From positions 165,536 through 229,535 of the forward strand of contig DAOPYQ010000001.1 in the NCBI GenBank assembly GCA_035352955.1: 64,000 nt of DNA, in the 5' to 3' direction. This DNA comes from Candidatus Omnitrophota bacterium (GTDB lineage: Bacteria > Omnitrophota > Omnitrophia > Omnitrophales > Aquincolibacteriaceae). The position numbers and the translations under genes are program-made. This document shows positions 1 through 14,066 of the stretch, in pieces (position 1 is the first letter of the stretch; the number at the start of each line of letters is the position of its first letter). Under the pieces are notes generated by a model. It was not told the DNA's origin, did not search any database, and saw nothing but the letters and a program-made list of their open reading frames with translations.

Positions 1-24
1 ATAACAAAAGATCGTTTTACCGGA

Positions 25-3000
25 ATGCCCATTGCCGTTGGTTGGGTAGTTCCGCAGATGACCGCCCTTCTCAACACCGAAACGCTCAGACGGGTTAGTC
101 CGGAAACGCGGGAGAGGTTTTGGGAATATCTTTTTCAAAGAGAGGTGCTGGGGAAGCCGATTCATCCCACGAACCACGGTCCTGCGCTGCGGGCGTTTCT
201 GTTAAGCGACGGGGTCAAAGCCTTGACGGTTGAAGAACTCGAAGCGATGTTCGGGATGTTCCTGTTCGAATATGTTAAAACCCCTTTCAACAAAAATCCG
301 GGGATCCGCGTAAGGGTTCCCGTCAGCCTGCCTGTTTTTTATTTTGCCGAGAAACTTTATGCCTCCCCGCAATGGAAATCGATGACCGATCCCTCTGCGA
401 GGTTGGCGATGATCCGGCTCGTAAACTCGGATCCTTTTGAGTTTGGTGTGGTGACCCCGACCGCCGGGGCTTTTCGTCCCGGTATGCGCGCCACGTGGGG
501 AGGAACGGTGGATTGGACGGTCCCCGCGCTATTCGAAAAAACGTTCGCGGTGCTGCGGCATGCGGCCCAGGAGCTTGACGGGTCGAAAGACCCCGGATCT
601 TTCGAGCAGATCTTCGGCCGATCGCGGCAAAAGATGAAACAGATCCTTGAACAGGTCAATGCCCGTCTGGAGCGTGGCGAAGCGCAGCCGGATGCCGGAT
701 CCGGTCCTCAGACCCCGAAGCCGGACAGCGAAGGGAAGTTGTGGGCGACTGCGCCGGAGGCGCAGAGCGCAGAGCGCAAAGCGCAACGCACAACGAAAAA
801 CGGAGATTCAACGTTCACCGTTGCGCGTGGTGCGTCGAACGCGGACGGAGTCCGCCGCGCCGAACTCCGGACCCAAGCGGGCCTTTTCAGCGAAGAGCAA
901 ACGTGGTTCAACACATTGTCATTCAAAAACCCGGGGGAGAAACAGGAACTTTTTGATTTGATGCTGTCTTTTTTAAGACATGGTGATTTTGTTTATGAGA
1001 ACCGTTATGGTCCGGACGCCGGCGATGTGGAGTATATCCGCGAGCGGGGTTTTTCCCTGCTGAAAGAGCTTTGGGATTCTCCTGGGTTTCAGCGGTTGCA
1101 GACGGCTGAAGAGCGCAGGTCGGTTCTTGGCAGCTTGAAAAACCAACTATTTCAAACGGATTCTTCTACCTTTGCTTCTCCCGTTTCTCTTCCGTTTTTT
1201 CACGCGTTCCTGAGCGAGCAGGCCCTCGGTAAAATGACGGAACCGCAAGACCGGCAGAAAGCGTTGATGTTTTTCGCGCGGTTTTCGGAGAGCCTCGCGC
1301 GCGAATCGGACGGTTTTCTGGCGCTCCTTGAAGGAAGGGGTAACCCGCAGATCTGGAATTCTCCCGAGAAGGAAAAACTCTGGGCAATGATTCAAAAGAT
1401 CATAGTTGCCGATGGGAAGAGGTATCCCGATTTTTTTCCTTCGAAAGCCTTTTCAGCGCTCCAGGATGTGTTGGGAGGCGAAGGGTTCCGGAGACTTACG
1501 GAACCTGCGGAACGAGAAAAGGTTTGGAAGATTCTCAGTACCATTCCGGGGTACGCTGGATGGGAACCCGAGGAAGGCTTGGGTATGTTTAGCAAGCTGA
1601 TCAACGGGCCGGGATTCGCCCGGATTACGGACCCTTCCGAGAGGATGGAACTGTTCCCCATGTTTTTTGAGTTGCTCAATATGCTAAAAAAGACGCGCTC
1701 CCAATATTTTTCAAATGGAAACGTGATCAGCCTTTTCGGCGAATTGCTGGGCGGTAATGGATTTGCCGGAAAGGCGGGGGCGGCCGATCGGAAAGCGGTC
1801 CTTGAGATCGCCCGGCTGTTATTGATGAGGCAAGAGGCAGGAGCTTTTGAGATGTTTAGAAAGTTCTTGGACGTTGTGGACGCGACAGGCGGATCCCAGG
1901 AGTTTTCGGAAGTTCTGGCGGATTTCTTGAAACGATCAGAGAGCGCGGATGGTGACGCGGTAAAAACCCTATTGGCGGAAGAAGCGGTTCAACGACTTGT
2001 CCTGCCGGCGGAGCAGGTGAATGCCCGCCTGACGCGCGGGGAAGTGCAGGCGGTTCCCGGTTTCCGGCCGCCGGTTTCAGGGGAAAAGGAAGGGAAGTTG
2101 TGGTTTGGAACGGCGAAGCCGGAGGACGGAAAACGGATGACGGATGGCGTAAAGCCCGGTTTTTCGCCATCCGACATCCTTCATCCTTCTTCCAAAGGTG
2201 ACGGACGGCTAAAGACAAAGGGTTTTTCGACATCCGACATCCGTTCTCCGCAATCCGTAAGCAAAGGCGGCGAACGGGCGGAGGTCCGGGCCGCGGGAAA
2301 AACTTCGGAGTTTGCGCCGCTGCGGCCGGTGGATCTCGGACGGTATGAATGGTTCCGGCAGATCGCGGGACCTGCCCGGAAAAAAGAAGTGACCGAAATT
2401 GTTCAATCGGTCCATGCCGCGATCCGGCAATATATCAGCGTTCGAGAGCAAGAGCCTGCCTTGCAGGTTTTTGAAAAAATGCTCGGCAACGAGATGTTCG
2501 AAAAGGGCCTGAACGCTGGCGAGCGGATCCTGGCCTTGGAGGCGGCCCAAAAGATCTTGTCAAACAGCGGCGCCCACGAAAACCGGGCGTTCCGGACCTG
2601 GATATTATTGATCGACAGCCGTGAATTTGCGGGGCTTGTGTATCCGGGCGAACGGAGGCGGGTGTGTTTGATCGCCGGTGAGATTCCGCAATATGCGAAA
2701 CACAACAGCCTGTTCACTCTGGAAGGTTTTTGGGATCTGCTCTCGTCAGGATCGACCGAGAAATTGGGCCGCGCGGAACGGTTCTGGATGCTTGAGACCG
2801 CGCGCGCGATCATCAAAAATGTTGAGATCAACCGGAGCGCGATCCTCTCCGAATACCGGAAGCTCCTTGAAAGTCCCGGCTTTGTCCAGCCGCTGGATGC
2901 TGTCGGAGAGCAAGGCTTACTCGCGTCTCATTTGGCTCCCGCGGAACAGCTTAAAATTTTACAGATCGTTCAGACGATCCCTGCCGTTGCCAAGGAACAC

Positions 3001-6000
3001 ACCCCAGAGTTTTTGGGAGAACTCAGAAGCTTTCTGGCCAGCGAGGGGTTTACCCAGATCACGGCTCCGGTTGAACGGGAAGCGGCGCTTGGGATCGTCC
3101 GGAGGGTCCTGAAATATGTCAAAAGTGATTTTGGCCGGGCGATCGAACTCGTTTGGGCCATATTAGGCAGCGAGGAATTTCGGAACCTTTCGGATCCCGA
3201 CGTGCGCCTGAGCTTTTTGGAGATCGTGGACCGGATCTTTCAGTGGGCGGGAGTCGAACGGATGAATGATTTGTGGTCGCTTAAAGAGTCGTTGGCTGCG
3301 GCCAAGTCTTCCGATTTCACCCGGATCCTGAAAGAATTTTCTGAAAAGACCCAAGGAGTGACCGGCGCAATGGCCCGTGCGCGGACGGCACAGGAGGTTT
3401 TTGAAGCAATGCTTCGGATGGCGCCGCAGGTGCAGGCCAGGGAATCTCGCGGGGAACCGCAGGACGTGCAACGCGTCGCGAACGGTGCGCAACGGGGAGT
3501 GGAAGGGAAATTGTGGTTTGGAACGGCGAAGCCGGAGGACGGAAAACGGATGACGGATGGCGTAAAGCCCGGTTTTTCGCCATCCGACATCCTTCATCCT
3601 TCTTCCAAAGGTGACGGACGGCTAAAGACAAAGGATTTTTCGACATCCGACATCCGGCATCCGCAATCCGTAAACGAAGATGGCCGCCGCGCTGAATTAC
3701 GGGAAGAACAGCTGACGGACATGGAACTGAACTGGTTCAACTCTCTCACGTTCCGGAACGGGGAGGAACGACTGGCGTTGTTAGAGGCGCTCGAAACGCT
3801 GGTCCGGCAATCCGGGTATTCTTACGGAAGTTTTTCTTGGGGGAATCCTTCCTGGATCGAAGGAATGAGCGGTTCCTCCACGGATCCCGACGAGATCAAT
3901 GTTCCGATCCTGGATATCCTCAAAAGTTTTTGGGGTTCGCCCGGCTTTGCGGTCCTTTCTGAACCGAAAGAGAGGATCCGAAGTCTCAGGATCGTTAAGA
4001 CGATCCTCACGTTTGTCGGGATGGCGGACTCAGGGGATGCGCTTAACAGGTTTGCCGGAATCCTGGATTCAAGAGGGTTCCAGTCGGTCAAGGACCCGGA
4101 TCTCCGGGAGGCTCTTTTCACCGCGGTGGAAACCCTGTCCGGTGAAACCCGGGGACCGCTTCATCGGGTCCTGGAATTGATGGAACGCTCCTCTTTCGAA
4201 GCGCTCGAAAAGCGCGTGAAGTTGACCCTTATTCCGTTTTTCTCTGTAATGGTTTTCAATGAGATTCCGCTCTCGGTCCAGTATCCTTTTTTCAAAGAAA
4301 AATTTGAAAAATTTTTCCCGGCATTCGCGGATCTTGCCGGTCCGTCCCGGCGGCGCTTAATCGAGGACCGCAAAGAGTTCGTCCGCCAGTTCTTTGCGTC
4401 TCCGGCGATCTCCGAACAGGTCTCTCCGGTGGATTTGAGCCTGGTGTTCTGTTCTCCCGCCTCTGGGGAGGATTTTTTCAGGAGGTTTTGTGAGATCCTG
4501 TCCAGGATCCCTACTGGAATTTCCGGTAGTGATCTCGCACCGTGGGTGCAGGAAGCCGTGAGGATGTTTGACCGGATCCGTTCCCAACTTTCCGCCCGGG
4601 AATCTCGCGGGGAACCGCAGGACGTGCAACGCACAGCGAACGGCGCGCAACGAGCAGTGGAAGGGAAGCTGTGGTTTGAAAAGGCAAAGCCGGAAGACGG
4701 TAGACGGATGACGGATGGAGACAAAGCCGGTTCTTCGCCATCCGCCATCCGTTCTCCGCAATCCGTAAACGAGGATGGCAGTCGCGCAGAGCGCAAAGCG
4801 CAACGCACAACGAAAAACGGAGATTCAACGTTGACCGTTGCGCGTGGTACGTCGAACGCGCCGCAAAGCGGCAGCCGCGCCGCACTAAATCCTGTCGATT
4901 TAGTACGGCTTCGGCAGAACCCCGGTGGTTCTGTCCGAGCCGAGTTGCGGGCGACGGCGGCGGAGTGGCAGGAAGCATACGAAGCCGTGAACGAGTTCGG
5001 GGCGTTGCTGAAATGGAAAGGTGATTACGCCGATCTCAGCGGCGCTCACGGCGATCGGCCTCTCCTGATGGTGCCGAATAACCGCGAACGTCGGATCGAC
5101 TTGATCGATCTCAAAACCCTCCGCGAAAAAACGATTCACGGACGGCCGGTCTCTGAATGGACCGGGAGGGCCGTGAACGATCAGAAGCTTTCGCCGGACA
5201 ACCGCTGGTTCTTTGGTCGCGAAGTGAACGCGATCTCGCATCTTGTGGATCTCGAGAATGGCGCGGATTTTCGGGATGCCGGAGGACGGACGATCACGGA
5301 GATTGTCGACTCCCGGTATGACGCCTACGTGTGGTTCTCGGGCGACAGCAGCATGCTCTTTGTTCTGCAGGGGCCGTTGCAAGTCCTGGAACTTAAAAAG
5401 CCGGACCATCCCCGGGCCTCCGTAGAAAAAATCCGCGAAGCGTTCGGCAACGATGTGAACAATATGGCATTCTCCGACGACGGAACGCTGGCGGCGGTCC
5501 AGTACTCCTATGATAGCAGGATCGAATTGGTCGATCTTGTCCGTGGCGAAAAGGTCCTTGGCCCGGACGGAAAACCCTGGAAAAAGAAAGCGACGAAATA
5601 TACGCAGCTGGAGCCTTTTAAATTCCTGCCGGGCACGCACATTTTCTGGACCCGCGGGTATGAAGGGAACGCTGTGGCCCATGATCCTTACGGCGAAGCG
5701 GATAAACTTTCTCCCGCCCGTCCGCTTTCGGAATTGATCCCGGAATATGCGGACCATCTCCAGATTTCTCCGGACAAAAAGCGGTTGTTTGTGATCAATT
5801 GTCCCGGAAGAAAAATAGGGCTGTCCGACGATACGGAAAACGAGGGCTTCTGGTATGACCTCAAGACGGGGAAGGAGATCTTGATCGGGGGCGAGCCTTT
5901 TTCGAAGAAGCTCGGCAAAGGGTTTACCAGAGCGGAGCTTTCACGCGATGAAAGCTTCCTTTGGGTTTTCCGTTCGATGGAAGATGCGCAACTTCTGGAT

Positions 6001-9000
6001 ACTGTTACCTGGAAGGACCGGACGATCAACGGTGTTAAGTGGGCGGATCTTATCACCCTCCACAACCCCATGTTTCTCGAGGGCGGCCGATTGTTCCTTT
6101 GTCCTGCGGGCAGCGGAATGGGGATGCGGGTCCTGGATCCGGCGAAATTCGAAAAAAATCCTGTTTTCAGGAAATTTATCGAACGTGGAAAACTCGCGGT
6201 TAGAACTTCGATGAAGTTTATTGATGTCTTTGGTTCTCTGGCCGCTGCCGGGACGATCCGGAACGGAACCGAGCTTAGGACTGCCGCGCGATTTCTGATC
6301 GCGATCCGCCATTTTGGAGAATGGTCTGAAAAGCTGAATAATTTTATCCGGGAAGCGGCTCATTCGGAGAATTCTGGCGAAAAGTTCACGGAACTTTGGC
6401 GGGAAATGATACAAGCCGCTGCTGCGGCATCGTGGGATCGTGACCGGATCACGGTGCTTGCGAACCAGTTGATAGAGCGTCTTGAGCGGATCGAAGAACA
6501 ACAAGCAGCCCGTGAGACGCGGGGGGAGCCGCAGACCGCGCAACGCACAGTCAACGGTGCGCAACGGGGAGAGGAAGGGAAGTTGTGGTTTGAAACGGCA
6601 AAGCCGGAAGACGGTAGACGGATGATGGATGGCGTAAAGCCTGGTTTTTCGACATCCGACATTCGTCCTCCGCAATCCGTAAGCGAAGATGGCAGCCGCG
6701 CTGAATTGCGCGGGACGGCCGGTCAGGAGATCTTGGATCCGCAAAGTTTTGATTCGATCCTGGAATTTATCCGGGCCGAGCCTTCCGAGGTTGTGAGGGG
6801 CCGGCGGGCGGAAAGGATGTTCGCGGCTTTTCTGAGCGCGCATCCGAAGGAGGTTAATGAAACAAATCTCGGAAAATTATACCGCGCGATCGAGCCGATT
6901 TGCGGCGAGGCGATCGGGTACGGGATCGCGCTTTTCGAATCGCTTGCCAGGACCTCGGAGTCGGCCCGCGCGAGTTTTAGTGCCGGGAATCTCGAAATTC
7001 TGATCGACCGTTTTCTGGCGACGCCGCCCCGATCGAGTGCCCGTGCTTATTTTCAGGGCATGGTGGCTCGATTTTGGGTGGCCCATCCCGAGGTTTTTGA
7101 CAAGACCGTCGCCGGTTCTCTGATCGAAAAGATCGATCTGGCGCCCACCGAGGGGCGCGATACGTTTCTCAGGTTTTTGGAATATTTTGACCGGCAGGAC
7201 GGTAACGTCTTCGATCCGGAAACGCTCGGTTTGTTCCTCCGAAAATTCGAGAGGGATATGGTCCGGGCGCCGATTGCCAAAAGGTCTTCCATGGATATGG
7301 GTTTATTGAGTGATGTTATCGAAAAGCTTACCTCCAAGACGCAGGTTCTTGATCCCGGGCTTTTCCGGACATACACGGCTCTCGCAAGCATGACGTCCAT
7401 GCCCGGGGGTTACGGTTATGACCGGTATGCCGAAACGCTCGGGGATTTTTTTAGAAAATATTACGGTCTTCAACTCGACAAAGATGTCCTGCATGTGCTG
7501 AGCAGGAGGATCTGGGGACTGGTTTTAGGGGAAAGGACCCAGGGGAAGAAAGGCGAGTTGATCTATTCGTGTCCGTTCCTTGCTTCCTGGGAACAGAATC
7601 TGAGCGCCCTGGCGGAGATCTTTCGGCCGGTGTCCGGGCAGGACCATCTTCCGCAAACGACCGTGGACGTTCTCGAAAAGAGCCTCGTTCTGCTCAGCGA
7701 GCAGGTCGGGGCCCGTCAGACGCGGGGGGAGCCGCAAGCCGCGCAACGCACAGCCAACGGTGCGCAACGGGGAGAGGAAGGGAAGTTGTGGTTTGAAACG
7801 GCAAAGACGGAGGACGGTAGACGGATGACGGATGGCGTAAAGCCTGGTTTTTCGACATCCGCCATCCGTCATCCATTATCCTCCGCCGAAGGCGACGGCC
7901 GAGCCGAGCTGCGCGCGACGGCGGGGGAGTGGACGAAAGCGTTTGAAACGATGCGCGAATTCGGAGCGCTTCTCAAATGGAACGGGAACACCCTGGATCT
8001 TTCAGGAGTTCATTCGAAAAATCCTCTCTTGATGATCATTAATGAGGCCCGGGGCTGGGTGAAGTTGATCGATCTTAAAACGCTGCGCGAGAAGACCGCA
8101 AAGGGGCGGCCGGTTTCCGAATGGATCGGGTGGACGGCTGACGATAGAAAGCTTTCTCCGGATAATCGCTGGTTTTTCTGGCGTGACGCGAGCGGTCTCA
8201 TTCATCTTTTGGATCTTGAGCGTGGCGAAGATTTCAGGGATCCCCAAGGCCGAACGATCGAGAAGATTTCGCCTTCTTCGAAAACGATCATACGAGTCTG
8301 GTTTTCCAGTGACAGTAAAAGTCTCTTTTTTCAGGATGTCTTAGGGCGTTGTTCGATCCTGGAGCTGACGAAATCTAAAATCCCCCGCGTGACGAAAGAA
8401 AAGATCCAGAAGCTGATAGATGCCGGGATCCTCGATTGGGCGTTATCCGATGACGGGACACTGCTTGCCGTGGATCGTGTGTTTCCAGGGAGTGGAAGCG
8501 GGCTCGAACTCATCGATCTTGTCCGGGGAGAAAAGGTTCTAAATGCGGATGGAAGCCTCTGGCGGAAGAGCCTGCCGGATCGCACGTCTCTTGTAAAGTT
8601 TAAGTTTCTTCCGGGAACGCGCATTTTCTGGGCGCGTACTTACGAAGGAAATGCCCAGATCTACGATCCGTTCGGGGAAGCGGCGGTCCTTTCTCCCGCG
8701 GTTCCTCTGGAGGCCTTGATCTCTAAATGCGCCAGCGAGGTTGTTCTCTCTCCGGATAAAAAGCGGTTGTTCGTGATCAATAATCCGGGGGACGGGCAGG
8801 GGGGGATCGATTATCGTAGGAGCGAAGGTTTTTGGTATGACCTCGTGACCGGTCAAGAGGTTATGGTTAAGGGCGAGCCTTTTTCAAAAAAGCTGGGAAA
8901 AGGGTTCGTTAGGGCGACTTTTTCTCCGGATCAGAGCTCTTTGTGGATTTTGTCGTGGGGGAGGGGGGGCACTTTTGGACTTCTGGATCCGCTGACCTGG

Positions 9001-12000
9001 GAGGACCGGAAGATCAACGGTGTAGAGGTCGGTCGCTTGTTGCCGCATGACGTTCCTGAGTTTCTTGGAGAGGGGCGTGTGCTTATTCATACCAGCGGGA
9101 TCGAAAGAAGATTCCGTATACTTGTTCCCGAGAAGATCGAAGGCGACCCTGTTTTGAAGAAGGTGGTGGGGCGCGGGAAATTCGCGCCGGAGGTTTCGAT
9201 GGCAATTCTGGAGAGCCTCGGTTTTCTGACGATGGTGGGTGCGGTACAAAACGGCGCTGAACTTCAAACCGCTCTGGAGTTCCTGACCGCGATACACAAT
9301 TTTATGGAATGGTACAAGCGCTTGGGTGTCTTCATCCAGAAGTTCGATTTTTCCGAAGATCTTAGCGGAAGATTTTCGGCGCTCTGGCACGAAACGATGT
9401 TCGATGCTGCCGGGGTCGCTGGAGATCGTGACCGGATCACGGTGCTTGCGAACCGGCTGATGGATCGTTTTCAGCAGATCGAAAAACAGCAAGTGGCTCG
9501 TGAAATTCGCGGCCAGCCGCAGGACGCGCAACGTGGAACGGACACCCCACGGGGGCTGGGCAAAGAGCGCCCTGACGTGCAACGGGGAGAGGAAGGGAAG
9601 TTGTGGTTTGAAACGGCAAAGCCGGAGGCGCAGAGCGCAGAGCGCAAAGCGCAACGCACAACGAAAAACGGAGATTCAACGTTGACCGTTGCGCGTGGCA
9701 CGTCGAGCGCGCCGCAAAGCGGCGCCCGCGCCGAACTCCGGGCAAAAGAACAGAAAGAAAAGGCGCCCTTTCTGCCGTCGCTGAAATCCATTGAGAAAAA
9801 ACTTAAAAAAGATCCAGGCTACGCCACGGAAAAGAATTTCGAACCGTTTCGGAGGGTTTTGAATGGAGAGGATAAAGAATTCCAAAAAACCTTAGCCTAT
9901 ATGTGCAAGTACGCCTTTCCTGTAGCGTCGTTTTTTTTCTACTATGGGCTGGTTGGCATTGGTTATTTTCTTTTAGCAGTTTTCTTTGTTCTTTTTGGCG
10001 ATCTGACGCTTCTTAACAGCTTGGACAGAGGAGTGATGCCGTATTTACTATTTCTGACTTGGCCGAGTTTTGTTCTAGGTGGGGGAATAGCGTATTTCTT
10101 TGATGAGGTTCGAATAAATGTCCAGCGTATGGCCGCGGCATTTCGGGCCCTTTCTATTTTTTTGAAATACAATGCGTTCTTTTCGCGTCCTGAGTTTGAG
10201 ATGCTAGCTTGGGGAAGAATTATTTCTAAAAAAGTTTTGGAGCATAATGTCTGGGAACGTCTCCCCGAATCTCAAAAGCATCTTTTGCAAAAACTCGCTT
10301 TTGGAGTTTTAAATCAGATGTACCAGTGGGGGTTTTCGGAAAAGCTCGCTGATAAATTTGCGCGGGATGTTAGCGATTTTACGTCTAAATATCCCAATAG
10401 CCGCGAAGACATCATCGCTATTCTGACACAAGCCTCGCAACGATACCACGCCGGCGCAAAAGAGGCCGAAATCGTCGCGTTTGTTTCTGAAAGACTTAAA
10501 AAAATCGAGGAGCAGAAAAGAGCCCGTGAGGCGCGGGGGGAACCGCAGGACGCGCAACGCGCGACGGACAACGTACAACGATCGTCCGAAGGGAAGTTGT
10601 GGTTTGAAACGGAAAAACCGGAGGCGCAGAGCGCAAAGCGCAACGCGCAACGCACAACGAAAAACGGAGATGCAACGTTGACCGTTGCGCGTGGTACGTT
10701 GAGCGCGCCGCAAAGCGACGCCCGCGCTGAAAAGCGGGAACGGAATTTTGACTGGTTCTGGAAAATGCCGCATGGGGCGGAGAAGACCCAGACGTGGCAG
10801 CTCGTCAAAAACATTCTCGGGGTTTTAAAGAAACAAAGGACCTCGGACGGGGAAAGGGATCTGGATGCTCTAAAGGATTTTCTGGTTTCGAAGGAGTTTG
10901 TTGGTCTGGCGGCCGGTGACAGGGTGAGGCTCCTGGCGCTTTTAGGGCGGTTTGCAGGAAAAGCCGAATGGATCGCGGTTCAACACCTGCAATTTTTATT
11001 TCGCGGTGAAGTCCAGGCGATCATGGATCCTGTCGAGAGGGCAAAGCTTTTTGAAGTGGTTGATGTGTTCGCCGGAAATTTGCAGCAGTTCGGATGGGAA
11101 TTCGCGTCCTGCAACTGGTTCCTTTATCAAATGAGGCTGTTTTCCGGTAAAAAAGATCCTCTGGTACAAGCGCGGGTGTGGGAGATCGCAAAAACGATCG
11201 CGGCCCGAAGAGAGGGTGACAGCCGGTGGGCTATTTCCGCGTTCGGCCTTTTTCTTAATTCGGAGAAATTTTCAAAGATCCTGGATCCTGGCGAGCGGCT
11301 AAAGGTATTGGAGATCGCCGCGGCGATCGCGCACTACTCTAAGGATATGACCGAAAGCGCGCAGGACGAGGACGGTGAATCGTATCTTCGGTGGGCCGGA
11401 TTTGACGGATTGCAGTCCTTGCTGGTCGCCCCGGGGTTTGTGAAGATCGAAGATCCTGCCTTGAGGATGAGCGCTCTCGAGATCGCAAAGATCCTTGCGA
11501 CGCGGCCCCAGTGGAACGAGGGCGGATTTTTGGGGGAATTCCTGCAATGTCTCGAAGAAGCCTCCGGCTCCCCGGAGTTTCCCGGCGTGTGGAAGGATTT
11601 TTCGAGGGATTTTGGCCAGGCCGTGACTGAAGAAGCGAAACGGGCCGCGGCAGAAACCGCTTATCAGACCCTCGTGCATCTTGCGATCCAGGCCAAAGCC
11701 CGTGAAGTGCGCGGCCAGGCGCAAATTGCGCAACGCGCAACGCACACCCCGCGGGGGTTGGACACAGAGCGCCCTGACGCACAACGAGAAGTGGAAGGGA
11801 AGTTGTGGTTTGAAACGGCAAAACCGGAGGACGGATCCCACGGGACTGCTTCGCCGAAACGGATGACGGATGGCGTAAAGCCCGGTTTTTCGAAATCCGC
11901 CATCCGCCATCCATTATTCTCCGCCGAAGGCGGCGCCCGAGCTGAATTACGCGCGACGGAAGCCGTGCCCGCGAAAACGTGGCGCGAGAAGATCGCGTCG

Positions 12001-13926
12001 AAGGTTCGGGAGACATTGATCGAACGGTGCACTTTTGATCGGCTTATCCGGAAGATCGAAAAAGATCCACGTAAGGCGACCCGCACCCGGCTCAAGCCGG
12101 TCCTCCGTGAACTTGGAGATCCGGGCTGGCTGTCCCAACGTTTGCTCGGCATCCATGACGTTTTTGCGCTTGTCTTCAACTTTCCGTTCTTCGGGATAGC
12201 GTATCTCCTGTCAGTCATCAATTTTGTGGCGGCCTTGCTTTTCGTTCCAAAGTTACTGATCGGTCTGGTTTTGCTCGGTATCGACCGGCTCCTGGAGCTC
12301 GGCGGCAAGGTCTTTTCGTCGGTGGCGTTTTTCCATTCCAAATATTCCGACTGGCTGGAGGTTCTCAATGATGCGGAAGACGGCGACACAGTCGATGGAT
12401 TTTTTACCTGGCTTGAGGCCCTTTGTAACCGGAGAACGACCGATACAGGTTGGATCGTGGAAATTGCCCGGAGACGCTCCATTTCCGCGCTCAAAGCCTT
12501 GAAAGTGTTCGTTCACGCCAATCCCGCGCTGGATCCGGAAGAATTCATGGGAGTTTTGGCGGAGATTTTGGCCCAGCCCGATCTGACCCGCGATCGTCGC
12601 CAGGTTCTTTGCGAGGTTTTGGTCGATTTCTACCGCATCGATGTTCCGCCGGAGGTGCTCGAGGAGATCCTTCTGTCGGCGCAGTCCACTTGGCGGGGAC
12701 AGTATCGTTCGTGGACGCCAATGGAAAAAACGAGGAACATGACAACGCTTCTGGATTTCCTGCGGCGGTTCGGGAGAGATATTCCGGGATTTGAGGCAAA
12801 GCCCTTAGACCAAAGGCTTCTCGTGATCGAGGCGTTCAAAAAAGATTTTGAACAGCTGATGGCGCAGTTCGGCGCGCGGCAAACGCGCGGGGAACCACAA
12901 ACCGTGCAACGCGCAACGGATAACGTACAACGATCGACGGAAGGGAAGTTATGGCTTGAAACGGAAAAACCGGAGGACGGAAAACGGATGACGGATGGAG
13001 TAAAACCTGGTTTTTCGCCATCCGCCATCCGCCATCCATTATCCTCCGCCGAAGGCGGCGACCGCGCCGAACTGCGCATCGTGACGGCTGAGCAGTCAGG
13101 GATCGCGGAGGAAGCGGTATCGGTCATTCTGACCCCCGGCAGGGTCCGTATTGAAAAACTCGGGAAATTGGCGGAGTCGATCGAACGAACGGTCCATGCG
13201 ATGACGCTCGACCGGTTTGCGGAGGCTTTGCGCGCGGCGGCGGTGAAGCGCCTTTCGATGATCGGGAGAAATGCGCCGCTTTTTTCAGCCCCGAAAGTGG
13301 ACGCGACGCTCGCGGAGAAAGCCGTCCGTTATTTTATGGATCAATTCAAGAAGGTGGATTCCAAGGGAGGTTTTGCCGTGGCGTTCGATTCCGAGGCGGA
13401 CCGGGCCCTTGAAGAGGCGCTCTTCCAAATGAGAGACCGGATCGGGCTGGCGATCTTTCCCAAAGAGTTGGTCAAACGGCTCAGCCCCAAGACACTTCGC
13501 GGCGTTCCTTATAAGGTTGTCCATGGTTTTCGGAGGATGAGACTGCCGCTTTCGGTGGAGAACAGCGGCGCGGTACCCGTGATAGGTGGCAAGGCGCGGG
13601 TTTCCCGAGAGGAAGACGGGGAGATCTTCAGCGTTCTTATGGAGGCGTCCGATGTGGAAGGAGAACCGTTCCTTGAAGTGGTGGAGAAGGTCGTCCAGAT
13701 CCTGAGCGGGCTTGTGGCTGCCGGGCAGGTCAAAAAAGCGGGTGAGTTGAAAGATCTTCAAAAGGCGGAGGAGATCAAGGCGGCTCTTCTCAAAAAGCTT
13801 TTCGAGGACCAGGGCGCTTCAGGGGTCATTGCTATCCGGGGCGGCAAGATCTTTGTGGACCGGGCGCTTCTGAGGGATTTTCTGACCCAGTACCTGGCGG
13901 CGAAGGTAATTGGGCAGGCGGCATAA
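25..13926 (+). CDS. Giant multidomain protein of 4633 aa, 5' end possibly off-window. It carries helical repeats, two beta-propeller-like blocks, two multi-TM blocks and ten conserved linker modules
   Basis: One stop-free frame of 13.9 kb. Frame 1 has no stop between position 1 and the ATG at 25. The antisense frames are broken into short ORFs. The product contains recognisable blade-like motifs (SPDNRWFF, SDDGTLAAV, SPDKKRLFVIN) and two hydrophobic helix clusters. No named family is recognised. Confidence 0.8.
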   Translation: MPIAVGWVVPQMTALLNTETLRRVSPETRERFWEYLFQREVLGKPIHPTNHGPALRAFLLSDGVKALTVEELEAMFGMFLFEYVKTPFNKNPGIRVRVPVSLPVFYFAEKLYASPQWKSMTDPSARLAMIRLVNSDPFEFGVVTPTAGAFRPGMRATWGGTVDWTVPALFEKTFAVLRHAAQELDGSKDPGSFEQIFGRSRQKMKQILEQVNARLERGEAQPDAGSGPQTPKPDSEGKLWATAPEAQSAERKAQRTTKNGDSTFTVARGASNADGVRRAELRTQAGLFSEEQTWFNTLSFKNPGEKQELFDLMLSFLRHGDFVYENRYGPDAGDVEYIRERGFSLLKELWDSPGFQRLQTAEERRSVLGSLKNQLFQTDSSTFASPVSLPFFHAFLSEQALGKMTEPQDRQKALMFFARFSESLARESDGFLALLEGRGNPQIWNSPEKEKLWAMIQKIIVADGKRYPDFFPSKAFSALQDVLGGEGFRRLTEPAEREKVWKILSTIPGYAGWEPEEGLGMFSKLINGPGFARITDPSERMELFPMFFELLNMLKKTRSQYFSNGNVISLFGELLGGNGFAGKAGAADRKAVLEIARLLLMRQEAGAFEMFRKFLDVVDATGGSQEFSEVLADFLKRSESADGDAVKTLLAEEAVQRLVLPAEQVNARLTRGEVQAVPGFRPPVSGEKEGKLWFGTAKPEDGKRMTDGVKPGFSPSDILHPSSKGDGRLKTKGFSTSDIRSPQSVSKGGERAEVRAAGKTSEFAPLRPVDLGRYEWFRQIAGPARKKEVTEIVQSVHAAIRQYISVREQEPALQVFEKMLGNEMFEKGLNAGERILALEAAQKILSNSGAHENRAFRTWILLIDSREFAGLVYPGERRRVCLIAGEIPQYAKHNSLFTLEGFWDLLSSGSTEKLGRAERFWMLETARAIIKNVEINRSAILSEYRKLLESPGFVQPLDAVGEQGLLASHLAPAEQLKILQIVQTIPAVAKEHTPEFLGELRSFLASEGFTQITAPVEREAALGIVRRVLKYVKSDFGRAIELVWAILGSEEFRNLSDPDVRLSFLEIVDRIFQWAGVERMNDLWSLKESLAAAKSSDFTRILKEFSEKTQGVTGAMARARTAQEVFEAMLRMAPQVQARESRGEPQDVQRVANGAQRGVEGKLWFGTAKPEDGKRMTDGVKPGFSPSDILHPSSKGDGRLKTKDFSTSDIRHPQSVNEDGRRAELREEQLTDMELNWFNSLTFRNGEERLALLEALETLVRQSGYSYGSFSWGNPSWIEGMSGSSTDPDEINVPILDILKSFWGSPGFAVLSEPKERIRSLRIVKTILTFVGMADSGDALNRFAGILDSRGFQSVKDPDLREALFTAVETLSGETRGPLHRVLELMERSSFEALEKRVKLTLIPFFSVMVFNEIPLSVQYPFFKEKFEKFFPAFADLAGPSRRRLIEDRKEFVRQFFASPAISEQVSPVDLSLVFCSPASGEDFFRRFCEILSRIPTGISGSDLAPWVQEAVRMFDRIRSQLSARESRGEPQDVQRTANGAQRAVEGKLWFEKAKPEDGRRMTDGDKAGSSPSAIRSPQSVNEDGSRAERKAQRTTKNGDSTLTVARGTSNAPQSGSRAALNPVDLVRLRQNPGGSVRAELRATAAEWQEAYEAVNEFGALLKWKGDYADLSGAHGDRPLLMVPNNRERRIDLIDLKTLREKTIHGRPVSEWTGRAVNDQKLSPDNRWFFGREVNAISHLVDLENGADFRDAGGRTITEIVDSRYDAYVWFSGDSSMLFVLQGPLQVLELKKPDHPRASVEKIREAFGNDVNNMAFSDDGTLAAVQYSYDSRIELVDLVRGEKVLGPDGKPWKKKATKYTQLEPFKFLPGTHIFWTRGYEGNAVAHDPYGEADKLSPARPLSELIPEYADHLQISPDKKRLFVINCPGRKIGLSDDTENEGFWYDLKTGKEILIGGEPFSKKLGKGFTRAELSRDESFLWVFRSMEDAQLLDTVTWKDRTINGVKWADLITLHNPMFLEGGRLFLCPAGSGMGMRVLDPAKFEKNPVFRKFIERGKLAVRTSMKFIDVFGSLAAAGTIRNGTELRTAARFLIAIRHFGEWSEKLNNFIREAAHSENSGEKFTELWREMIQAAAAASWDRDRITVLANQLIERLERIEEQQAARETRGEPQTAQRTVNGAQRGEEGKLWFETAKPEDGRRMMDGVKPGFSTSDIRPPQSVSEDGSRAELRGTAGQEILDPQSFDSILEFIRAEPSEVVRGRRAERMFAAFLSAHPKEVNETNLGKLYRAIEPICGEAIGYGIALFESLARTSESARASFSAGNLEILIDRFLATPPRSSARAYFQGMVARFWVAHPEVFDKTVAGSLIEKIDLAPTEGRDTFLRFLEYFDRQDGNVFDPETLGLFLRKFERDMVRAPIAKRSSMDMGLLSDVIEKLTSKTQVLDPGLFRTYTALASMTSMPGGYGYDRYAETLGDFFRKYYGLQLDKDVLHVLSRRIWGLVLGERTQGKKGELIYSCPFLASWEQNLSALAEIFRPVSGQDHLPQTTVDVLEKSLVLLSEQVGARQTRGEPQAAQRTANGAQRGEEGKLWFETAKTEDGRRMTDGVKPGFSTSAIRHPLSSAEGDGRAELRATAGEWTKAFETMREFGALLKWNGNTLDLSGVHSKNPLLMIINEARGWVKLIDLKTLREKTAKGRPVSEWIGWTADDRKLSPDNRWFFWRDASGLIHLLDLERGEDFRDPQGRTIEKISPSSKTIIRVWFSSDSKSLFFQDVLGRCSILELTKSKIPRVTKEKIQKLIDAGILDWALSDDGTLLAVDRVFPGSGSGLELIDLVRGEKVLNADGSLWRKSLPDRTSLVKFKFLPGTRIFWARTYEGNAQIYDPFGEAAVLSPAVPLEALISKCASEVVLSPDKKRLFVINNPGDGQGGIDYRRSEGFWYDLVTGQEVMVKGEPFSKKLGKGFVRATFSPDQSSLWILSWGRGGTFGLLDPLTWEDRKINGVEVGRLLPHDVPEFLGEGRVLIHTSGIERRFRILVPEKIEGDPVLKKVVGRGKFAPEVSMAILESLGFLTMVGAVQNGAELQTALEFLTAIHNFMEWYKRLGVFIQKFDFSEDLSGRFSALWHETMFDAAGVAGDRDRITVLANRLMDRFQQIEKQQVAREIRGQPQDAQRGTDTPRGLGKERPDVQRGEEGKLWFETAKPEAQSAERKAQRTTKNGDSTLTVARGTSSAPQSGARAELRAKEQKEKAPFLPSLKSIEKKLKKDPGYATEKNFEPFRRVLNGEDKEFQKTLAYMCKYAFPVASFFFYYGLVGIGYFLLAVFFVLFGDLTLLNSLDRGVMPYLLFLTWPSFVLGGGIAYFFDEVRINVQRMAAAFRALSIFLKYNAFFSRPEFEMLAWGRIISKKVLEHNVWERLPESQKHLLQKLAFGVLNQMYQWGFSEKLADKFARDVSDFTSKYPNSREDIIAILTQASQRYHAGAKEAEIVAFVSERLKKIEEQKRAREARGEPQDAQRATDNVQRSSEGKLWFETEKPEAQSAKRNAQRTTKNGDATLTVARGTLSAPQSDARAEKRERNFDWFWKMPHGAEKTQTWQLVKNILGVLKKQRTSDGERDLDALKDFLVSKEFVGLAAGDRVRLLALLGRFAGKAEWIAVQHLQFLFRGEVQAIMDPVERAKLFEVVDVFAGNLQQFGWEFASCNWFLYQMRLFSGKKDPLVQARVWEIAKTIAARREGDSRWAISAFGLFLNSEKFSKILDPGERLKVLEIAAAIAHYSKDMTESAQDEDGESYLRWAGFDGLQSLLVAPGFVKIEDPALRMSALEIAKILATRPQWNEGGFLGEFLQCLEEASGSPEFPGVWKDFSRDFGQAVTEEAKRAAAETAYQTLVHLAIQAKAREVRGQAQIAQRATHTPRGLDTERPDAQREVEGKLWFETAKPEDGSHGTASPKRMTDGVKPGFSKSAIRHPLFSAEGGARAELRATEAVPAKTWREKIASKVRETLIERCTFDRLIRKIEKDPRKATRTRLKPVLRELGDPGWLSQRLLGIHDVFALVFNFPFFGIAYLLSVINFVAALLFVPKLLIGLVLLGIDRLLELGGKVFSSVAFFHSKYSDWLEVLNDAEDGDTVDGFFTWLEALCNRRTTDTGWIVEIARRRSISALKALKVFVHANPALDPEEFMGVLAEILAQPDLTRDRRQVLCEVLVDFYRIDVPPEVLEEILLSAQSTWRGQYRSWTPMEKTRNMTTLLDFLRRFGRDIPGFEAKPLDQRLLVIEAFKKDFEQLMAQFGARQTRGEPQTVQRATDNVQRSTEGKLWLETEKPEDGKRMTDGVKPGFSPSAIRHPLSSAEGGDRAELRIVTAEQSGIAEEAVSVILTPGRVRIEKLGKLAESIERTVHAMTLDRFAEALRAAAVKRLSMIGRNAPLFSAPKVDATLAEKAVRYFMDQFKKVDSKGGFAVAFDSEADRALEEALFQMRDRIGLAIFPKELVKRLSPKTLRGVPYKVVHGFRRMRLPLSVENSGAVPVIGGKARVSREEDGEIFSVLMEASDVEGEPFLEVVEKVVQILSGLVAAGQVKKAGELKDLQKAEEIKAALLKKLFEDQGASGVIAIRGGKIFVDRALLRDFLTQYLAAKVIGQAA
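655..885 (+). repeat. Linker module 1, type B (..EGKLW..AQSAERKAQRTTKNGDSTFTVARG..RAELR), with GCGCAACG..CGTTGCGCG hairpin
   Basis: Near-identical nucleotide block shared with modules 4, 7 and 8 and with the intergenic elements near 17.6 and 18.7 kb. Confidence 0.85.
2017..2297 (+). repeat. Linker module 2, type A (EGKLWFGTAKPEDGKRMTDGVKPGFSPSDI..), with internal tandem duplication of the PGFSxSDIxxP unit
   Basis: Near-identical to module 3 at the DNA level. Contains the hairpin acggatgacggatggcg..cgccatccgacatcc. Confidence 0.85.
3433..3705 (+). repeat. Linker module 3, type A with internal duplication
   Basis: RGEPQDVQRVANGAQRGVEGKLWFGTAKPEDGKRMTDGVKPGFSPS.. Hairpin stem of 14/15 bp at about 3547-3595. 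Confidence 0.85.
4592..4890 (+). repeat. Linker module 4, composite type A plus type B
   Basis: RGEPQDVQRTANGAQRAVEGKLWFEKAKPEDGRRMTDG.. followed by AERKAQRTTKNGDSTLTVARG. The type B hairpin cgcaacgcacaacg..cgttgaccgttgcg lies at about 4786-4850. Confidence 0.85.
6506..6712 (+). repeat. Linker module 5, type A
   Basis: RGEPQTAQRTVNGAQRGEEGKLWFETAKPEDGRRMMDGVKPGFSTSDIRPPQSVSEDGSRAELR. Confidence 0.85.
7710..7915 (+). repeat. Linker module 6, type A
   Basis: RGEPQAAQRTANGAQRGEEGKLWFETAKTEDGRRMTDGVKPGFSTSAIRHP..RAELR. The hairpin has a perfect 13-bp stem (ggatgacggatgg/ccatccgtcatcc). Confidence 0.85.
9494..9742 (+). repeat. Linker module 7, type B with extra insert (GTDTPRGLGKERPDVQR)
   Basis: ..EGKLWFETAKPEAQSAERKAQRTTKNGDSTLTVARGTSSAPQSGARAELR. 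Confidence 0.85.
10520..10738 (+). repeat. Linker module 8, type B
   Basis: RGEPQDAQRATDNVQRSSEGKLWFETEKPEAQSAKRNAQRTTKNGDATLTVARG.. Confidence 0.85.
11698..11955 (+). repeat. Linker module 9, type A with insert
   Basis: ..EVEGKLWFETAKPEDGSHGTASPKRMTDGVKPGFSKSAIRHP..RAELR. Confidence 0.85.
12870..13078 (+). repeat. Linker module 10, type A
   Basis: RGEPQTVQRATDNVQRSTEGKLWLETEKPEDGKRMTDGVKPGFSPSAIRHP..RAELR. Confidence 0.85.
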
Positions 13927-13977
13927 GGTCTGAAAATCTCAAGTTTCAGGTCTTAAAATCGGACATTTATCCCTTCA

Positions 13978-14005
13978 TTGACACGTCCTTCCTTATCAAT
14001 ATAAT
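13978..14005 (+). promoter_or_regulatory. Near-consensus sigma70 promoter, TTGACA-16nt-TATAAT
   Basis: ttgaca at 13978-13983 and tataat at 14000-14005, about 60 nt upstream of the CDS at 14067. Confidence 0.6.
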
Positions 14006-14066
14006 AACAACCTCTTTTGTTTCAGATGTTTACGACAATTCTTGTCCCCAAAGGGTCGAGGTCTCT

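What the first reader, a model, noticed from the sequence alone, without database searches (positions are those of the whole stretch)
655..13078. Ten near-identical in-frame linker modules with strong nucleic-acid hairpins punctuate the giant ORF
Ten modules of 200-280 nt start at 655, 2017, 3433, 4592, 6506, 7710, 9494, 10520, 11698 and 12870. They are spaced 1.0-1.9 kb apart. They are conserved at the nucleotide level, whereas the domains between them are unrelated to each other. Each module encodes AR..RGEPQ..QR..NGAQRG.EGKLWFETAKPEDG... and ends in RAELR. There are two subtypes. Type A carries the hairpin acggatgacggatggcg / cgccatccgacatcc, which pairs 14-15 bp, and encodes RMTDGVKPGFSPS.IR.P. 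Type B carries gcgcaacgcacaacg..cgttgaccgttgcgcg and encodes AQSAERKAQRTTKNGDSTLTVARG. Module 4 carries both subtypes. Modules 2 and 3 carry an internal tandem duplication. Such nucleotide-level identity beside divergent flanks implies recent spread or gene conversion of a DNA element. A slowly evolving protein domain would not look like this. The closest known analogy is the Rickettsia palindromic elements, which insert in-frame into coding genes. Here all copies are inside one gene and at domain boundaries. Stable in-frame mRNA hairpins at every domain boundary could also pause ribosomes for domain-wise folding. The conserved peptides could equally be processing sites of a polyprotein. Both of these ideas are inference.
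Basis: seen in the sequence. Interest (0 to 1): 0.9.

Follow-up and report, generated by a model that had tools for sequence, protein, structure and literature searches.

The report
Repeated linker in a giant gene
A giant gene of an uncultured Omnitrophota bacterium is punctuated by a roughly 70-residue floppy linker, repeated ten times in this window, that is translated, kept alike by copying between copies, and carries small palindromic inserts; it is probably not a mobile element, and nothing yet shows that its hairpins have a function.

Summary
The ten in-frame modules are real. They are not near-identical: the 5' parts share 51-89% nucleotide identity, and only two short palindromic cassettes (A, 47 nt; B, 54 nt) are 77-100% identical. 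The ORF is the 3' half of a 9104-aa gene in an Omnitrophota MAG.

The modules are translated and under purifying selection (pN below pS). AlphaFold2 gives them low confidence and no secondary structure. They are less diverged than the paralogous domains around them.

A profile search of 1.84 billion proteins found one homologue, a 7743-aa protein with 17 such modules. Every copy in each protein carries that protein's own fixed residues: GKLW/RAE.R here, ELW/RSE.R there. A strain variant of the homologue differs only by a short stretch identical to another module. This is concerted evolution by gene conversion within the gene.

No module copy lies elsewhere in the window or in the public collections searched. 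Both cassette types also occur in the homologue, so a recent RPE-like invasion is unlikely.

The hairpins are stable but no more so than others in the same ORF, and they show no compensatory changes. Each arm is an array of heptamers in inverted orientation, which remains unexplained. A role as polyprotein processing or docking sites is plausible but untested.

The parts
1..13926 (+). 3' half (4641 codons plus stop) of a giant gene. The source contigs call a 9104-aa product.
   Evidence: Frame 1 is open from base 1. The 9104-aa product is called on JGI Ga0116247_10000008 and on NCBI DAONFQ010000001.1. Assemblies from JGI, NCBI and Logan are identical to the window over the overlap. No Pfam family reaches its cut-off.
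652..870 (+). Linker module M1, with a diverged 5' part and a type B cassette
2014..2289 (+). Linker module M2, type A cassette plus a partial duplication that adds a second 3' arm
3427..3702 (+). Linker module M3, type A cassette plus the same partial duplication
4585..4950 (+). Linker module M4, type A cassette followed by a type B cassette and an extra tail
6499..6711 (+). Linker module M5, type A
7702..7914 (+). Linker module M6, type A. The extended imperfect hairpin spans about 7808-7885.
9487..9741 (+). Linker module M7, type B, with a 30-nt insert in the 5' part that M9 shares
10513..10737 (+). Linker module M8, type B
11689..11952 (+). Linker module M9, type A, with the 30-nt insert shared with M7 and a 21-nt insert before the cassette
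12865..13077 (+). Linker module M10, type A
7822..7868 (+). Type A palindromic cassette, reference copy: CGGATGACGGATGGCG - 15-nt loop - CGACATCCGCCATCCG. Other copies lie at 2134-2180, 3547-3593, 4705-4751, 6619-6665, 11860-11906 and 12985-13031. The arms are arrays of the heptamer GACGGAT and its complement.
9642..9695 (+). Type B palindromic cassette, reference copy: GCGCAACGCACAACG - loop - CGTTGACCGTTGCGC. Other copies lie at 774-827, 4791-4844 and 10638-10691. The arms are arrays of the heptamers GCGCARA/GCGCAAC and their complement.
4951..6498 (+). Domain P1, a beta-propeller-like segment paralogous to P2
   Evidence: 51% aa identity to 7915-9486, dS 1.44. It shares 23% identity with a segment of P0121 that matches Pfam WD40.
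7915..9486 (+). Domain P2, paralogue of P1
9742..10512 (+). Domain T1, a hydrophobic segment that looks membrane-spanning by eye. It is a distant paralogue of T2.
   Evidence: 25% aa identity to 11953-12864. The sequence is shown.
11953..12864 (+). Domain T2. Its counterpart in the homologue is P0121 residues 7084-7286.
13078..13923 (+). C-terminal domain, the best-conserved part of the protein family
   Evidence: 58% identity to P0121 residues 7466-7743. It has no Pfam or PDB match. The AlphaFold2 single-sequence model is unusable at pLDDT 42.

Best explanation
The modules are a translated inter-domain linker, probably intrinsically disordered, of an orphan family of giant Omnitrophota proteins. 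The family combines WD40-like propellers, helical-repeat segments and hydrophobic segments.

Each linker has three short conserved motifs:
- Q-x-x-A-R-x-x-R-G at the end of the preceding helix;
- G-[K/E]-L-W in the middle;
- R-[A/S]-E-x-R just before the next domain.
Between the last two motifs lies a variable slot that holds one of several alternative cassettes.

The copies within one gene stay alike through repeated short-tract gene conversion between linkers (concerted evolution), acting together with purifying selection on the peptide motifs. The cassettes are exchanged between linkers by the same process. That explains why a cassette can be almost identical in two linkers whose 5' parts have diverged to about 55-65% identity.

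Cassettes A and B are palindromes built from inverted arrays of heptamers, so they fold as hairpins. On present evidence this reflects how they arose and spread, not a demonstrated RNA function.

Shown: translation-type constraint, concerted evolution, mosaicism, age, and restriction to this gene family.

Inferred: all linkers must present the same motifs because one trans-acting partner recognises them. The most likely partner is a processing protease that cuts the giant precursor at the R-[A/S]-E-x-R end; a docking partner is the alternative. This is also why homogenisation is tolerated or favoured.
For: Coding constraint:
- In the 5' part, pN is below pS for almost all pairs (pS 0.17-0.75, pN 0.09-0.45).
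- Over whole modules, dN/dS is about 0.2-0.4 among type A copies.

Disorder: AlphaFold2 on a 10-row alignment gives pLDDT 56, pTM 0.11 and essentially no secondary structure.

Less diverged than neighbouring sequence:
- P1/P2 have dS 1.44 and 51% aa identity; T and H paralogues are 25-28% identical with saturated dS.
- Neighbouring modules M5/M6 have pS 0.17 in the 5' part.

Mosaicism:
- The 5' subtype with the 30-nt insert occurs with cassette B in M7 and with cassette A in M9.
- The TDNVQRS subtype occurs with B in M8 and with A in M10.
- M1's 5' part is 51-62% identical to the others, yet its B cassette differs from M7's by 1 nt in 54.

Homologue:
- A module-profile search of 1.84 billion representatives found one protein, P0121 (E 2e-17, 14 stretches).
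- It has 17 modules of the same layout.
- Its domains are 23-32% identical to ours and its C-terminal domain 58%.

Concerted evolution:
- GKLW and RAE.R occur in 10/10 copies here; [GEQK]ELW and RSE.R occur in 17/17 copies in P0121.
- Anchor-motif identity is 0.72 and 0.65 within each protein and 0.49 between them.

Ongoing conversion: P0217 differs from P0121 at 4 of 7743 residues. All four lie in module 9, and the variant string LWTVGAAAPRA is identical to module 4.

Age of the cassettes: A-like (RRMADGAKPAFTPSALLHP) and B-like (GQRTTKEKTLTVDRR) cassettes are present in P0121, alongside about five further cassette types.

Processing idea: the literature proposes that Omnitrophota giant proteins are cleaved, and states that the cleavage points are unknown.
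Against: - Conservation of the cassette stems at synonymous sites is higher than in the rest of the module. pS is 0.14 in stems against 0.33-0.53 elsewhere, and 2 of 9 stem codons show synonymous variation against 22 of 36 elsewhere, Fisher p 0.06.
- The two substitutions in the lower stem of hairpin A both keep a G-U pair. Together these hint at a nucleotide-level constraint that pure linker drift plus conversion does not require.
- Two unrelated cassettes at the same slot are both palindromes, which is unlikely by chance.
- The P0217 variant could be an assembly chimera between repeats rather than a real conversion tract.
- No protease domain was found in the window part, or in the first 686 residues of P0121.
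- The partner-recognition function is pure inference.
- Only two genomes carry the family, and DNA of the second could not be obtained.
Confidence: 0.7

Rival explanations
1. The hairpins are selected mRNA structures placed about 40-57 codons after each domain end. They slow the ribosome so that the finished domain clears the exit tunnel and folds. Alternatively they protect or process the 27-kb transcript. On this view the peptide they encode is secondary.
For: - Two unrelated sequences (A and B) occupy the same slot and both form stems of 15-16 pairs.
- Stems show fewer synonymous differences than the rest of the module.
- Both lower-stem substitutions keep G-U pairs on the sense strand.
- In P0121's B-like cassette, Ala to Gly in the 5' arm and Ala to Asp in the 3' arm fall on paired codons, and they would allow the pairs to be kept (my mapping onto; DNA not seen).
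- The cassette starts 40 codons after the module start in 6 of 7 type A copies.
Against: - Against synonymous resampling, module windows are no more structured than the rest of the ORF (p 0.69), and several non-module hairpins are as strong or stronger.
- Whole-module z averages only -1.3, against -0.4 for controls.
- No pair shows a compensatory change, and 7 of 20 pairs are broken in some copy.
- The Fisher test on synonymous variation gives p 0.06.
- There is no Rfam match beyond weak generic hairpin hits on both strands.
- One P0121 module (residue 6711) has no cassette at all.
Confidence: 0.15
2. The modules, or just the cassettes, are copies of a selfish palindromic mobile element. Like Rickettsia palindromic elements or other intragenic MITEs, it would have inserted in frame and spread recently.
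For: - The cassettes are palindromic and nearly identical in linkers that are otherwise diverged.
- M4 holds two cassettes, and M2/M3 hold a partial duplication.
- RPEs are about 150 bp and often lie in frame inside genes.
Against: - No copy lies in the other 50 kb of the window on either strand.
- No match was found in genome, metagenome or viral collections by peptide or DNA patterns. The source genome itself is not in those collections.
- Every copy is in one orientation and one frame, at a domain junction of one gene.
- Both cassette types and the whole module layout are present in a homologue whose domains are only 23-32% identical, so they are old.
- The 5' part evolves as coding sequence.
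- No terminal inverted repeats or target duplications were seen around the cassettes. This was by eye, not a formal test.
Confidence: 0.07
3. The array is derived from an integron-like cassette array. The palindromes would be attC-like recombination sites, and the segments between them captured cassettes that later fused into one reading frame.
For: - Homogeneous palindromes spaced 1.0-1.9 kb apart between heterogeneous segments resemble chromosomal integron arrays (my own knowledge).
- The type B arms GCGCAAC and GTTGCGC match 6 of 7 positions of the attC core consensus RYYYAAC / GTTRRRY (sequence; consensus from my own knowledge).
Against: - One uninterrupted frame runs over 4641 codons here and 9104 in the source, with no cassette-level starts or stops.
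- The type A arms lack AAC/GTT.
- Several intervening segments are paralogues of each other.
- The palindrome is only 47-54 nt of a module of 213 nt or more, and the rest of the module is conserved as peptide.
Confidence: 0.02

Closest known systems
Concerted evolution of intragenic repeats by gene conversion, as in repeat-bearing bacterial surface proteins and in spider silk genes (PMC9779670 for silk; the bacterial examples are from my own knowledge)
   Same: Copies inside one gene are more alike than the matching copies in another genome. Copies are mosaics. Short conversion tracts distinguish strains.
   Different: Here the homogenised unit is only the linker. The units between the linkers are heterogeneous domains of 300-600 residues that have diverged to 25-51% identity. 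The linker also has a slot filled by alternative palindromic cassettes.
Rickettsia palindromic elements and other intragenic MITEs (review PMC10969869)
   Same: A short palindromic sequence lies in frame within coding DNA and encodes a conserved peptide.
   Different: RPEs sit in many unrelated genes and between genes. These copies are all in one gene family, in one orientation, at domain junctions. They are shared with a distant homologue, and most of the module is not palindromic.
Giant proteins of Omnitrophota (bioRxiv 10.1101/2023.11.21.568195 and 10.64898/2026.06.07.730766)
   Same: The phylum matches. The protein is very long, with helical-repeat, WD-type and membrane-like segments and little annotation. 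Cleavage into several products has been proposed for such proteins.
   Different: At 9104 aa this protein is below the 30,000-aa class described in the first paper. No SecA-DEAD, C39 or S8 domain was found in the parts examined. A term search of both papers found no mention of 'linker' or 'hairpin'. The second paper reports that nucleotide tandem repeats have mostly dissolved in long Omnitrophota genes, whereas these dispersed linkers remain alike.
Polyprotein junction sites of viruses (my own knowledge)
   Same: A short conserved motif recurs at every junction between unrelated domains of one long translation product.
   Different: Viral sites are a few residues long. Here the unit is 70-120 residues. 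No protease has been identified and no cleavage has been shown.

Membership tests
Intragenic repeats under concerted evolution (gene conversion) | Copies within a genome share derived states that differ from those of the homologous copies in another genome | tested here: met
   GKLW and RAE.R occur in 10/10 copies here. [GEQK]ELW and RSE.R occur in 17/17 copies in P0121. Anchor-motif identity is 0.72 and 0.65 within each protein and 0.49 between them.
Intragenic repeats under concerted evolution (gene conversion) | Copies are mosaics whose segments have discordant relationships | tested here: met
   5' subtypes, cassette types and tail types are combined freely. M1 and M7 are 56% identical in the 5' part but differ at 1 of 54 nt in the cassette.
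Intragenic repeats under concerted evolution (gene conversion) | Repeats are less diverged at synonymous sites than adjoining sequence duplicated with them | tested here: met
   P1/P2 have pS 0.64 (dS 1.44), and the T and H paralogues have pS 0.72-0.87. Module 5' parts mostly have pS 0.17-0.6, and stems 0.14.
Intragenic repeats under concerted evolution (gene conversion) | Conversion tracts are visible between closely related strains | tested here: inconclusive
   P0217 and P0121 differ at 4 clustered residues in module 9, and the variant equals the module 4 sequence. A repeat-induced assembly chimera cannot be excluded.
Rickettsia palindromic elements / intragenic MITEs | Copies are dispersed in unrelated genes and intergenic DNA of the genome | tested here: not met
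   There are no copies in the 50 kb of the window outside the gene, and none in the public collections searched. The rest of the source genome could not be searched.
Rickettsia palindromic elements / intragenic MITEs | Insertion polymorphism: homologues of the host gene lack the element | tested here: not met
   The only homologue carries 17 modules of the same layout between its domains, including both cassette types.
Rickettsia palindromic elements / intragenic MITEs | The whole element is palindromic, or has terminal inverted repeats and target-site duplications | tested here: inconclusive
   Only 47-54 nt of each module (213-366 nt) is a clean palindrome. Whole-module folds have z of -1.8 and -3.6 against dinucleotide shuffles. 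No TIR or TSD was noticed in the alignment, and no formal search was made.
Structured cis-acting RNA element | The structure is more stable than the coding background allows | tested here: not met
   Z-scores of 60-nt windows against synonymous resampling do not differ between modules and the rest of the ORF (p 0.69). The hairpins lie within the 1-5% tail of the background.
Structured cis-acting RNA element | Base pairs are kept through compensatory changes | tested here: not met
   Type A has 20 pairs. None has a change on both sides, 3 have one-sided changes that keep a pair, and 7 are broken in some copy. Type B copies are too alike to test.
Structured cis-acting RNA element | Match to a described RNA family | tested here: not met
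   Only weak matches to microRNA precursor models were found, on both strands and far below the gathering scores.
Integron attC sites | Paired core sites RYYYAAC / GTTRRRY, and cassettes with their own reading frames | tested here: not met
   Type B matches 6 of 7 positions, and type A does not match. A single frame runs through all units.
Integron attC sites | Integron integrase next to the array | not testable with these tools
   The 5' end of the gene and its upstream region lie outside the window and could not be fetched.
Polyprotein processing sites | The same short motif at every domain junction | tested here: met
   Q..AR..RG, G[KE]LW and R[AS]E.R are present in all 27 modules of the two proteins.
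Polyprotein processing sites | A cognate protease and demonstrated cleavage | not testable with these tools
   No peptidase family matched in the window part or in P0121 residues 1-686. The remaining parts of both proteins were not scanned. No proteomic data are available.
Omnitrophota giant proteins of the 'Archaeovorin' type (West-Roberts et al. 2023) | Omnitrophota origin; at least 30,000 aa; many membrane helices; HEAT repeats; divergent SecA-DEAD domain | tested here: inconclusive
   Origin is met: the closest ilvB loci are Omnitrophota MAGs at 82% identity. The length is 9104 aa. No HEAT or SecA Pfam match was found in the window half. The 5' half was not seen.

The most novel reading that the evidence does not exclude
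The linkers may be dual-coded. Besides the peptide motifs, the heptamer-array palindromes would be selected nucleic-acid structures placed a fixed distance (about 40 codons) after each domain. They could act as translation pause or processing marks on a 27-kb mRNA. Alternatively they could act as hot spots that drive conversion and domain shuffling. Either way, different cassette sequences would be interchangeable because only the hairpin matters.
Probability: 0.15. Interest if true: 0.8.

Novelty: new variant of a known kind. Interest (0 to 1): 0.5.

Why it matters
Giant bacterial genes, especially in Omnitrophota, are almost unannotated. Published work proposes that their products are cut into pieces but could not say where.

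A conserved linker that marks every domain boundary of a 9104-aa orphan protein and of its only known relative gives three practical things:
- a way to split such proteins into folding units for structure prediction;
- a concrete set of candidate cleavage or docking sites to look for in metaproteomes;
- a clear example of concerted evolution acting on linkers while the domains between them diverge freely.

The inverted heptamer arrays inside coding sequence are unexplained. If nucleotide-level selection on them were shown, they would be a rare case of overlapping peptide and nucleic-acid constraints repeated along one gene.

Tried and rejected
Searches for relatives that found nothing:
- The search for homologous proteins with the 4633-aa translation gave no hit.
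- Peptide-pattern scans with the module alignment found nothing in genome contigs or metagenome contigs.
- Two-arm DNA patterns for cassette A found nothing in metagenome or viral contigs, and for cassette B nothing in viral contigs.
- The source contigs are evidently not in those collections, so these negatives say little about the source genome.

Attempts to reach the 5' half of the gene:
- I used synteny (enolase-divIC-p392-ilvB) in relatives, an enolase homologue search and five contig look-ups.
- All returned relatives without this gene.
- One relative (L094) has an unrelated giant gene upstream of enolase.

Attempts to reach the DNA of P0121:
- I searched for p392 homologues, matched contig lengths and made one look-up. 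This failed.
- P0121 is too long for the look-up of encoding contigs.

Other dead ends:
- Scoring 'hairpin potential' from peptide sequence alone recovered hairpin A only weakly (p 0.027) and missed hairpin B (p 0.91), so I dropped it.
- The AlphaFold2 model of the C-terminal domain without an alignment was unusable (pLDDT 42), so no fold search was run.
- PDB sequence search of that domain found nothing.

Ideas considered from the sequence and set aside:
- Internal translation starts (a GGAGG-like run about 10 nt before the ATG of RMTDG, or before the TTG of EGKLW). The Shine-Dalgarno-like run and the TTG are not kept in all copies.
- A -1 frameshift site in the GGTTTTT loop. The frame does not fit.
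- CsrA-type GGA motifs in the arms. These are speculative and untested.
- A diversity-generating retroelement. No reverse transcriptase appeared among the ten downstream genes scanned. Adenine-specific differences between copies were not tested.
Full report
**What is there.**
- The window opens inside a gene. Frame 1 is open from base 1 to the stop at 13924-13926.
- The same DNA, identical base for base, lies on a 396-kb JGI contig, a 167-kb NCBI MAG contig and a Logan contig. On the JGI and NCBI contigs the product is called at 9104 aa.
- Downstream are ordinary chromosomal genes: ilvB, ilvC, leuA, aroE, a prepilin peptidase, aroC, aroB, dprA and topA.
- The closest ilvB loci in a species-level genome collection are Omnitrophota MAGs at 82% protein identity.
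- In five related loci the neighbourhood reads enolase - divIC - a 330-490-aa protein - ilvB, with no giant gene. None of the fetched related loci encodes anything similar to the giant protein.

**Check of the observation.**
- Ten modules are present at the stated places. Their core motifs recur far beyond chance.
- All are in frame and all lie on the + strand. No copy lies in the other 50 kb of the window.
- Type A hairpins are in M2-M6, M9 and M10. Type B are in M1, M7 and M8. M4 has both, and M2/M3 carry a partial duplication that adds a second 3' arm.
  - The modules are not near-identical. Their 5' parts are 51-89% identical.
  - The segments between modules are not all unrelated. P1/P2 are 51% identical, and the T and H segments are distant paralogues.
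  - The hairpins are stable but not outstanding (see below).

**The modules are translated sequence under selection.**
- Among type A modules, whole-module dS is 0.26-1.04 and dN 0.13-0.35.
- In the shared 5' part, pS is 0.17-0.75 and pN 0.09-0.45.
- This is the pattern of a moderately constrained peptide, not of a DNA element indifferent to the frame.
- The peptide is rich in R, E, G, Q, A, K, P, T and S. AlphaFold2 with the ten copies as alignment gives pLDDT 56 and no secondary structure. This fits a disordered linker.

**The modules evolve in concert.**
- They are less diverged than the paralogous domains beside them.
- They are mosaics:
  - The 5' subtype with a 30-nt insert is joined to cassette B in M7 and to cassette A in M9.
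  - The TDNVQRS subtype is joined to B in M8 and to A in M10.
  - M1 has the most diverged 5' part, yet its B cassette is one base away from that of M7.
- The strongest evidence came from outside the window. A profile of the module, searched against 1.84 billion representative proteins, found exactly one protein, P0121. It is 7743 aa long and has 14 matching stretches.
- P0121 is full length, with an N-terminal hydrophobic segment. By pattern it holds 17 modules of the same layout.
- Its domains are only 23-32% identical to those here, and its C-terminal domain 58%. One of its propeller segments matches Pfam WD40.
- Every copy here has GKLW and RAE.R. Every copy there has ELW (never GKLW) and RSE.R.
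- Fixed differences shared by all copies in each genome cannot arise by independent divergence of old paralogues. They require homogenisation.
- A second sequence, P0217, is the same protein from other contigs. It differs at four residues only, all within eight positions of module 9, and the variant string is identical to module 4. That is a conversion tract of about 25-35 nt or more, unless it is an assembly chimera.

**The elements are old and private to this gene family.**
- P0121 has cassettes clearly homologous to A (RRMADGAKPAFTPSALLHP against RRMTDGVKPGFSPSAIRHP) and to B (GQRTTKEKTLTVDRR against AQRTTKNGDSTLTVARG).
- It has about five further cassette types, and one module with none.
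- The 5' subtype with the insert is also shared between the two proteins.
- The system of a linker with alternative cassettes therefore predates the split of two lineages whose domains have diverged to 23-32% identity.
- Taken with the absence of copies elsewhere, this argues against a recently spreading RPE-like element (RPE features from PMC10969869).

**The hairpins.**
- Cassette A has two 16-nt arms with one central mismatch and a 15-nt loop that can add five more pairs.
- Cassette B has arms of 8 + 5 pairs around a 2-nt internal loop.
- Tandem Repeats Finder shows that almost all period-7 arrays in the 14 kb lie in the modules. They are GACGGAT x3-4 and CATCCGC x2.3-3.1 in A, and GCGCAGA / GCGCAAC x3.7-4.1 in B.
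- Each hairpin is therefore a pair of heptamer arrays in inverted orientation.
- Stability: 60-nt windows over the cassettes fold at -26 to -31 kcal/mol. Modules supply 16 of the 30 most stable windows.
- Once the encoded peptide is held fixed and codons are resampled, module windows are not more structured than the rest of the ORF (p 0.69), and several non-module hairpins score lower. Whole-module z averages -1.3, against -0.4 for controls.
- Covariation: none of the 20 pairs of hairpin A changes on both sides. Three change on one side and keep a pair. Seven are broken in some copy, mostly at the top of the stem.
- Hints in favour of a constraint:
  - Stems have fewer synonymous differences than the rest of the module (pS 0.14 against 0.33-0.53; Fisher p 0.06).
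  - The two lower-stem substitutions keep G-U pairs on the sense strand.
  - In P0121 the B-like cassette has Ala to Gly and Ala to Asp at codons that pair with each other, which would allow the pairs to be kept. This last point is mapped from protein only.
- Rfam gives nothing beyond weak generic hairpin hits on both strands.
- My reading is that a selected structure is possible but not shown. Near-identity through conversion explains most of what is seen.

**Function.**
- Three motifs are common to all 27 modules of the two proteins: Q..AR..RG, G[KE]LW and R[AS]E.R.
- These motifs, their species-wide co-variation and the disordered context are what one expects if a single partner must recognise every linker.
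- The published proposal that Omnitrophota giant proteins are cleaved, with unknown cleavage points, makes a processing site the most attractive candidate.
- However, no peptidase was found in the parts scanned and nothing here tests cleavage.
- A term search of the two papers on Omnitrophota giant genes found neither 'linker' nor 'hairpin'.

**Verdict.**
- The feature is a translated, probably disordered inter-domain linker of an orphan giant-protein family. It is homogenised by gene conversion within the gene, and it has a slot for alternative palindromic cassettes built from inverted heptamer arrays.
- It is a new variant of a known kind, namely concerted evolution of intragenic repeats. 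It is not a mobile element, and it is not yet a demonstrated RNA signal.
- Interest is moderate. It rises if the DNA of the second gene shows compensated stems, or if proteomics shows cleavage at the linkers.

Noticed in passing
window 13927-15245: The ORF after the giant gene is listed as 14067-15245 (392 aa). N-terminal residues of its homologues in L006 and L007 align to window 13965-14159, so its true start may lie about 100 nt upstream, only about 40 nt after the giant gene's stop. Only the C-terminal 234 residues are well conserved (about 61-65% in L006, L007 and L014). Some sources name homologues 'pimeloyl-ACP methyl ester carboxylesterase'.
   Followed up: partly
L006, L007, L086, L093, L097 (loci of related Omnitrophota): Relatives with 51-82% ilvB identity have enolase - divIC - the homologue of the 392-aa protein - ilvB, with no giant gene in between. 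The 27-kb gene is therefore lineage-specific at this site, or has moved. What lies upstream of it in the source genome could not be seen.
   Followed up: partly
L094 1-9196 and L096 1-4653: Another Omnitrophota relative carries an unrelated very long gene (at least 3337 aa, running off the contig) just upstream of enolase. It has no similarity to the giant protein studied here.
   Followed up: partly
L090, L091, L092: Three independent assemblies of one relative all end within a few hundred bases after divIC. L091 shows the start of a new ORF with a signal-peptide-like N-terminus (MGKRWMLALLILGISLFMTLGVAVYA...). Assemblies may break here because a repetitive long gene follows.
   Followed up: no
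window 1-64000: GC skew is positive in every 2-kb bin, and nearly all long ORFs are on the + strand. The whole window appears to lie on one replichore with genes co-oriented with replication.
   Followed up: no
window 7021-7080, 7216-7275, 3931-3990, 5926-5985: Several hairpins outside the modules are as stable as the cassette hairpins or more so, relative to synonymous resampling (z of -3.4 to -4.1). They are single-copy and were not examined further.
   Followed up: no
window 9520-9552 and 11722-11754: The 30-nt insert shared by M7 and M9 (encoding TPRGL..ERPD) contains its own small palindromes (CCCCGCGGGG, GGGC..GCCC). It is also present, as peptide, in module 7 of the homologue P0121.
   Followed up: partly
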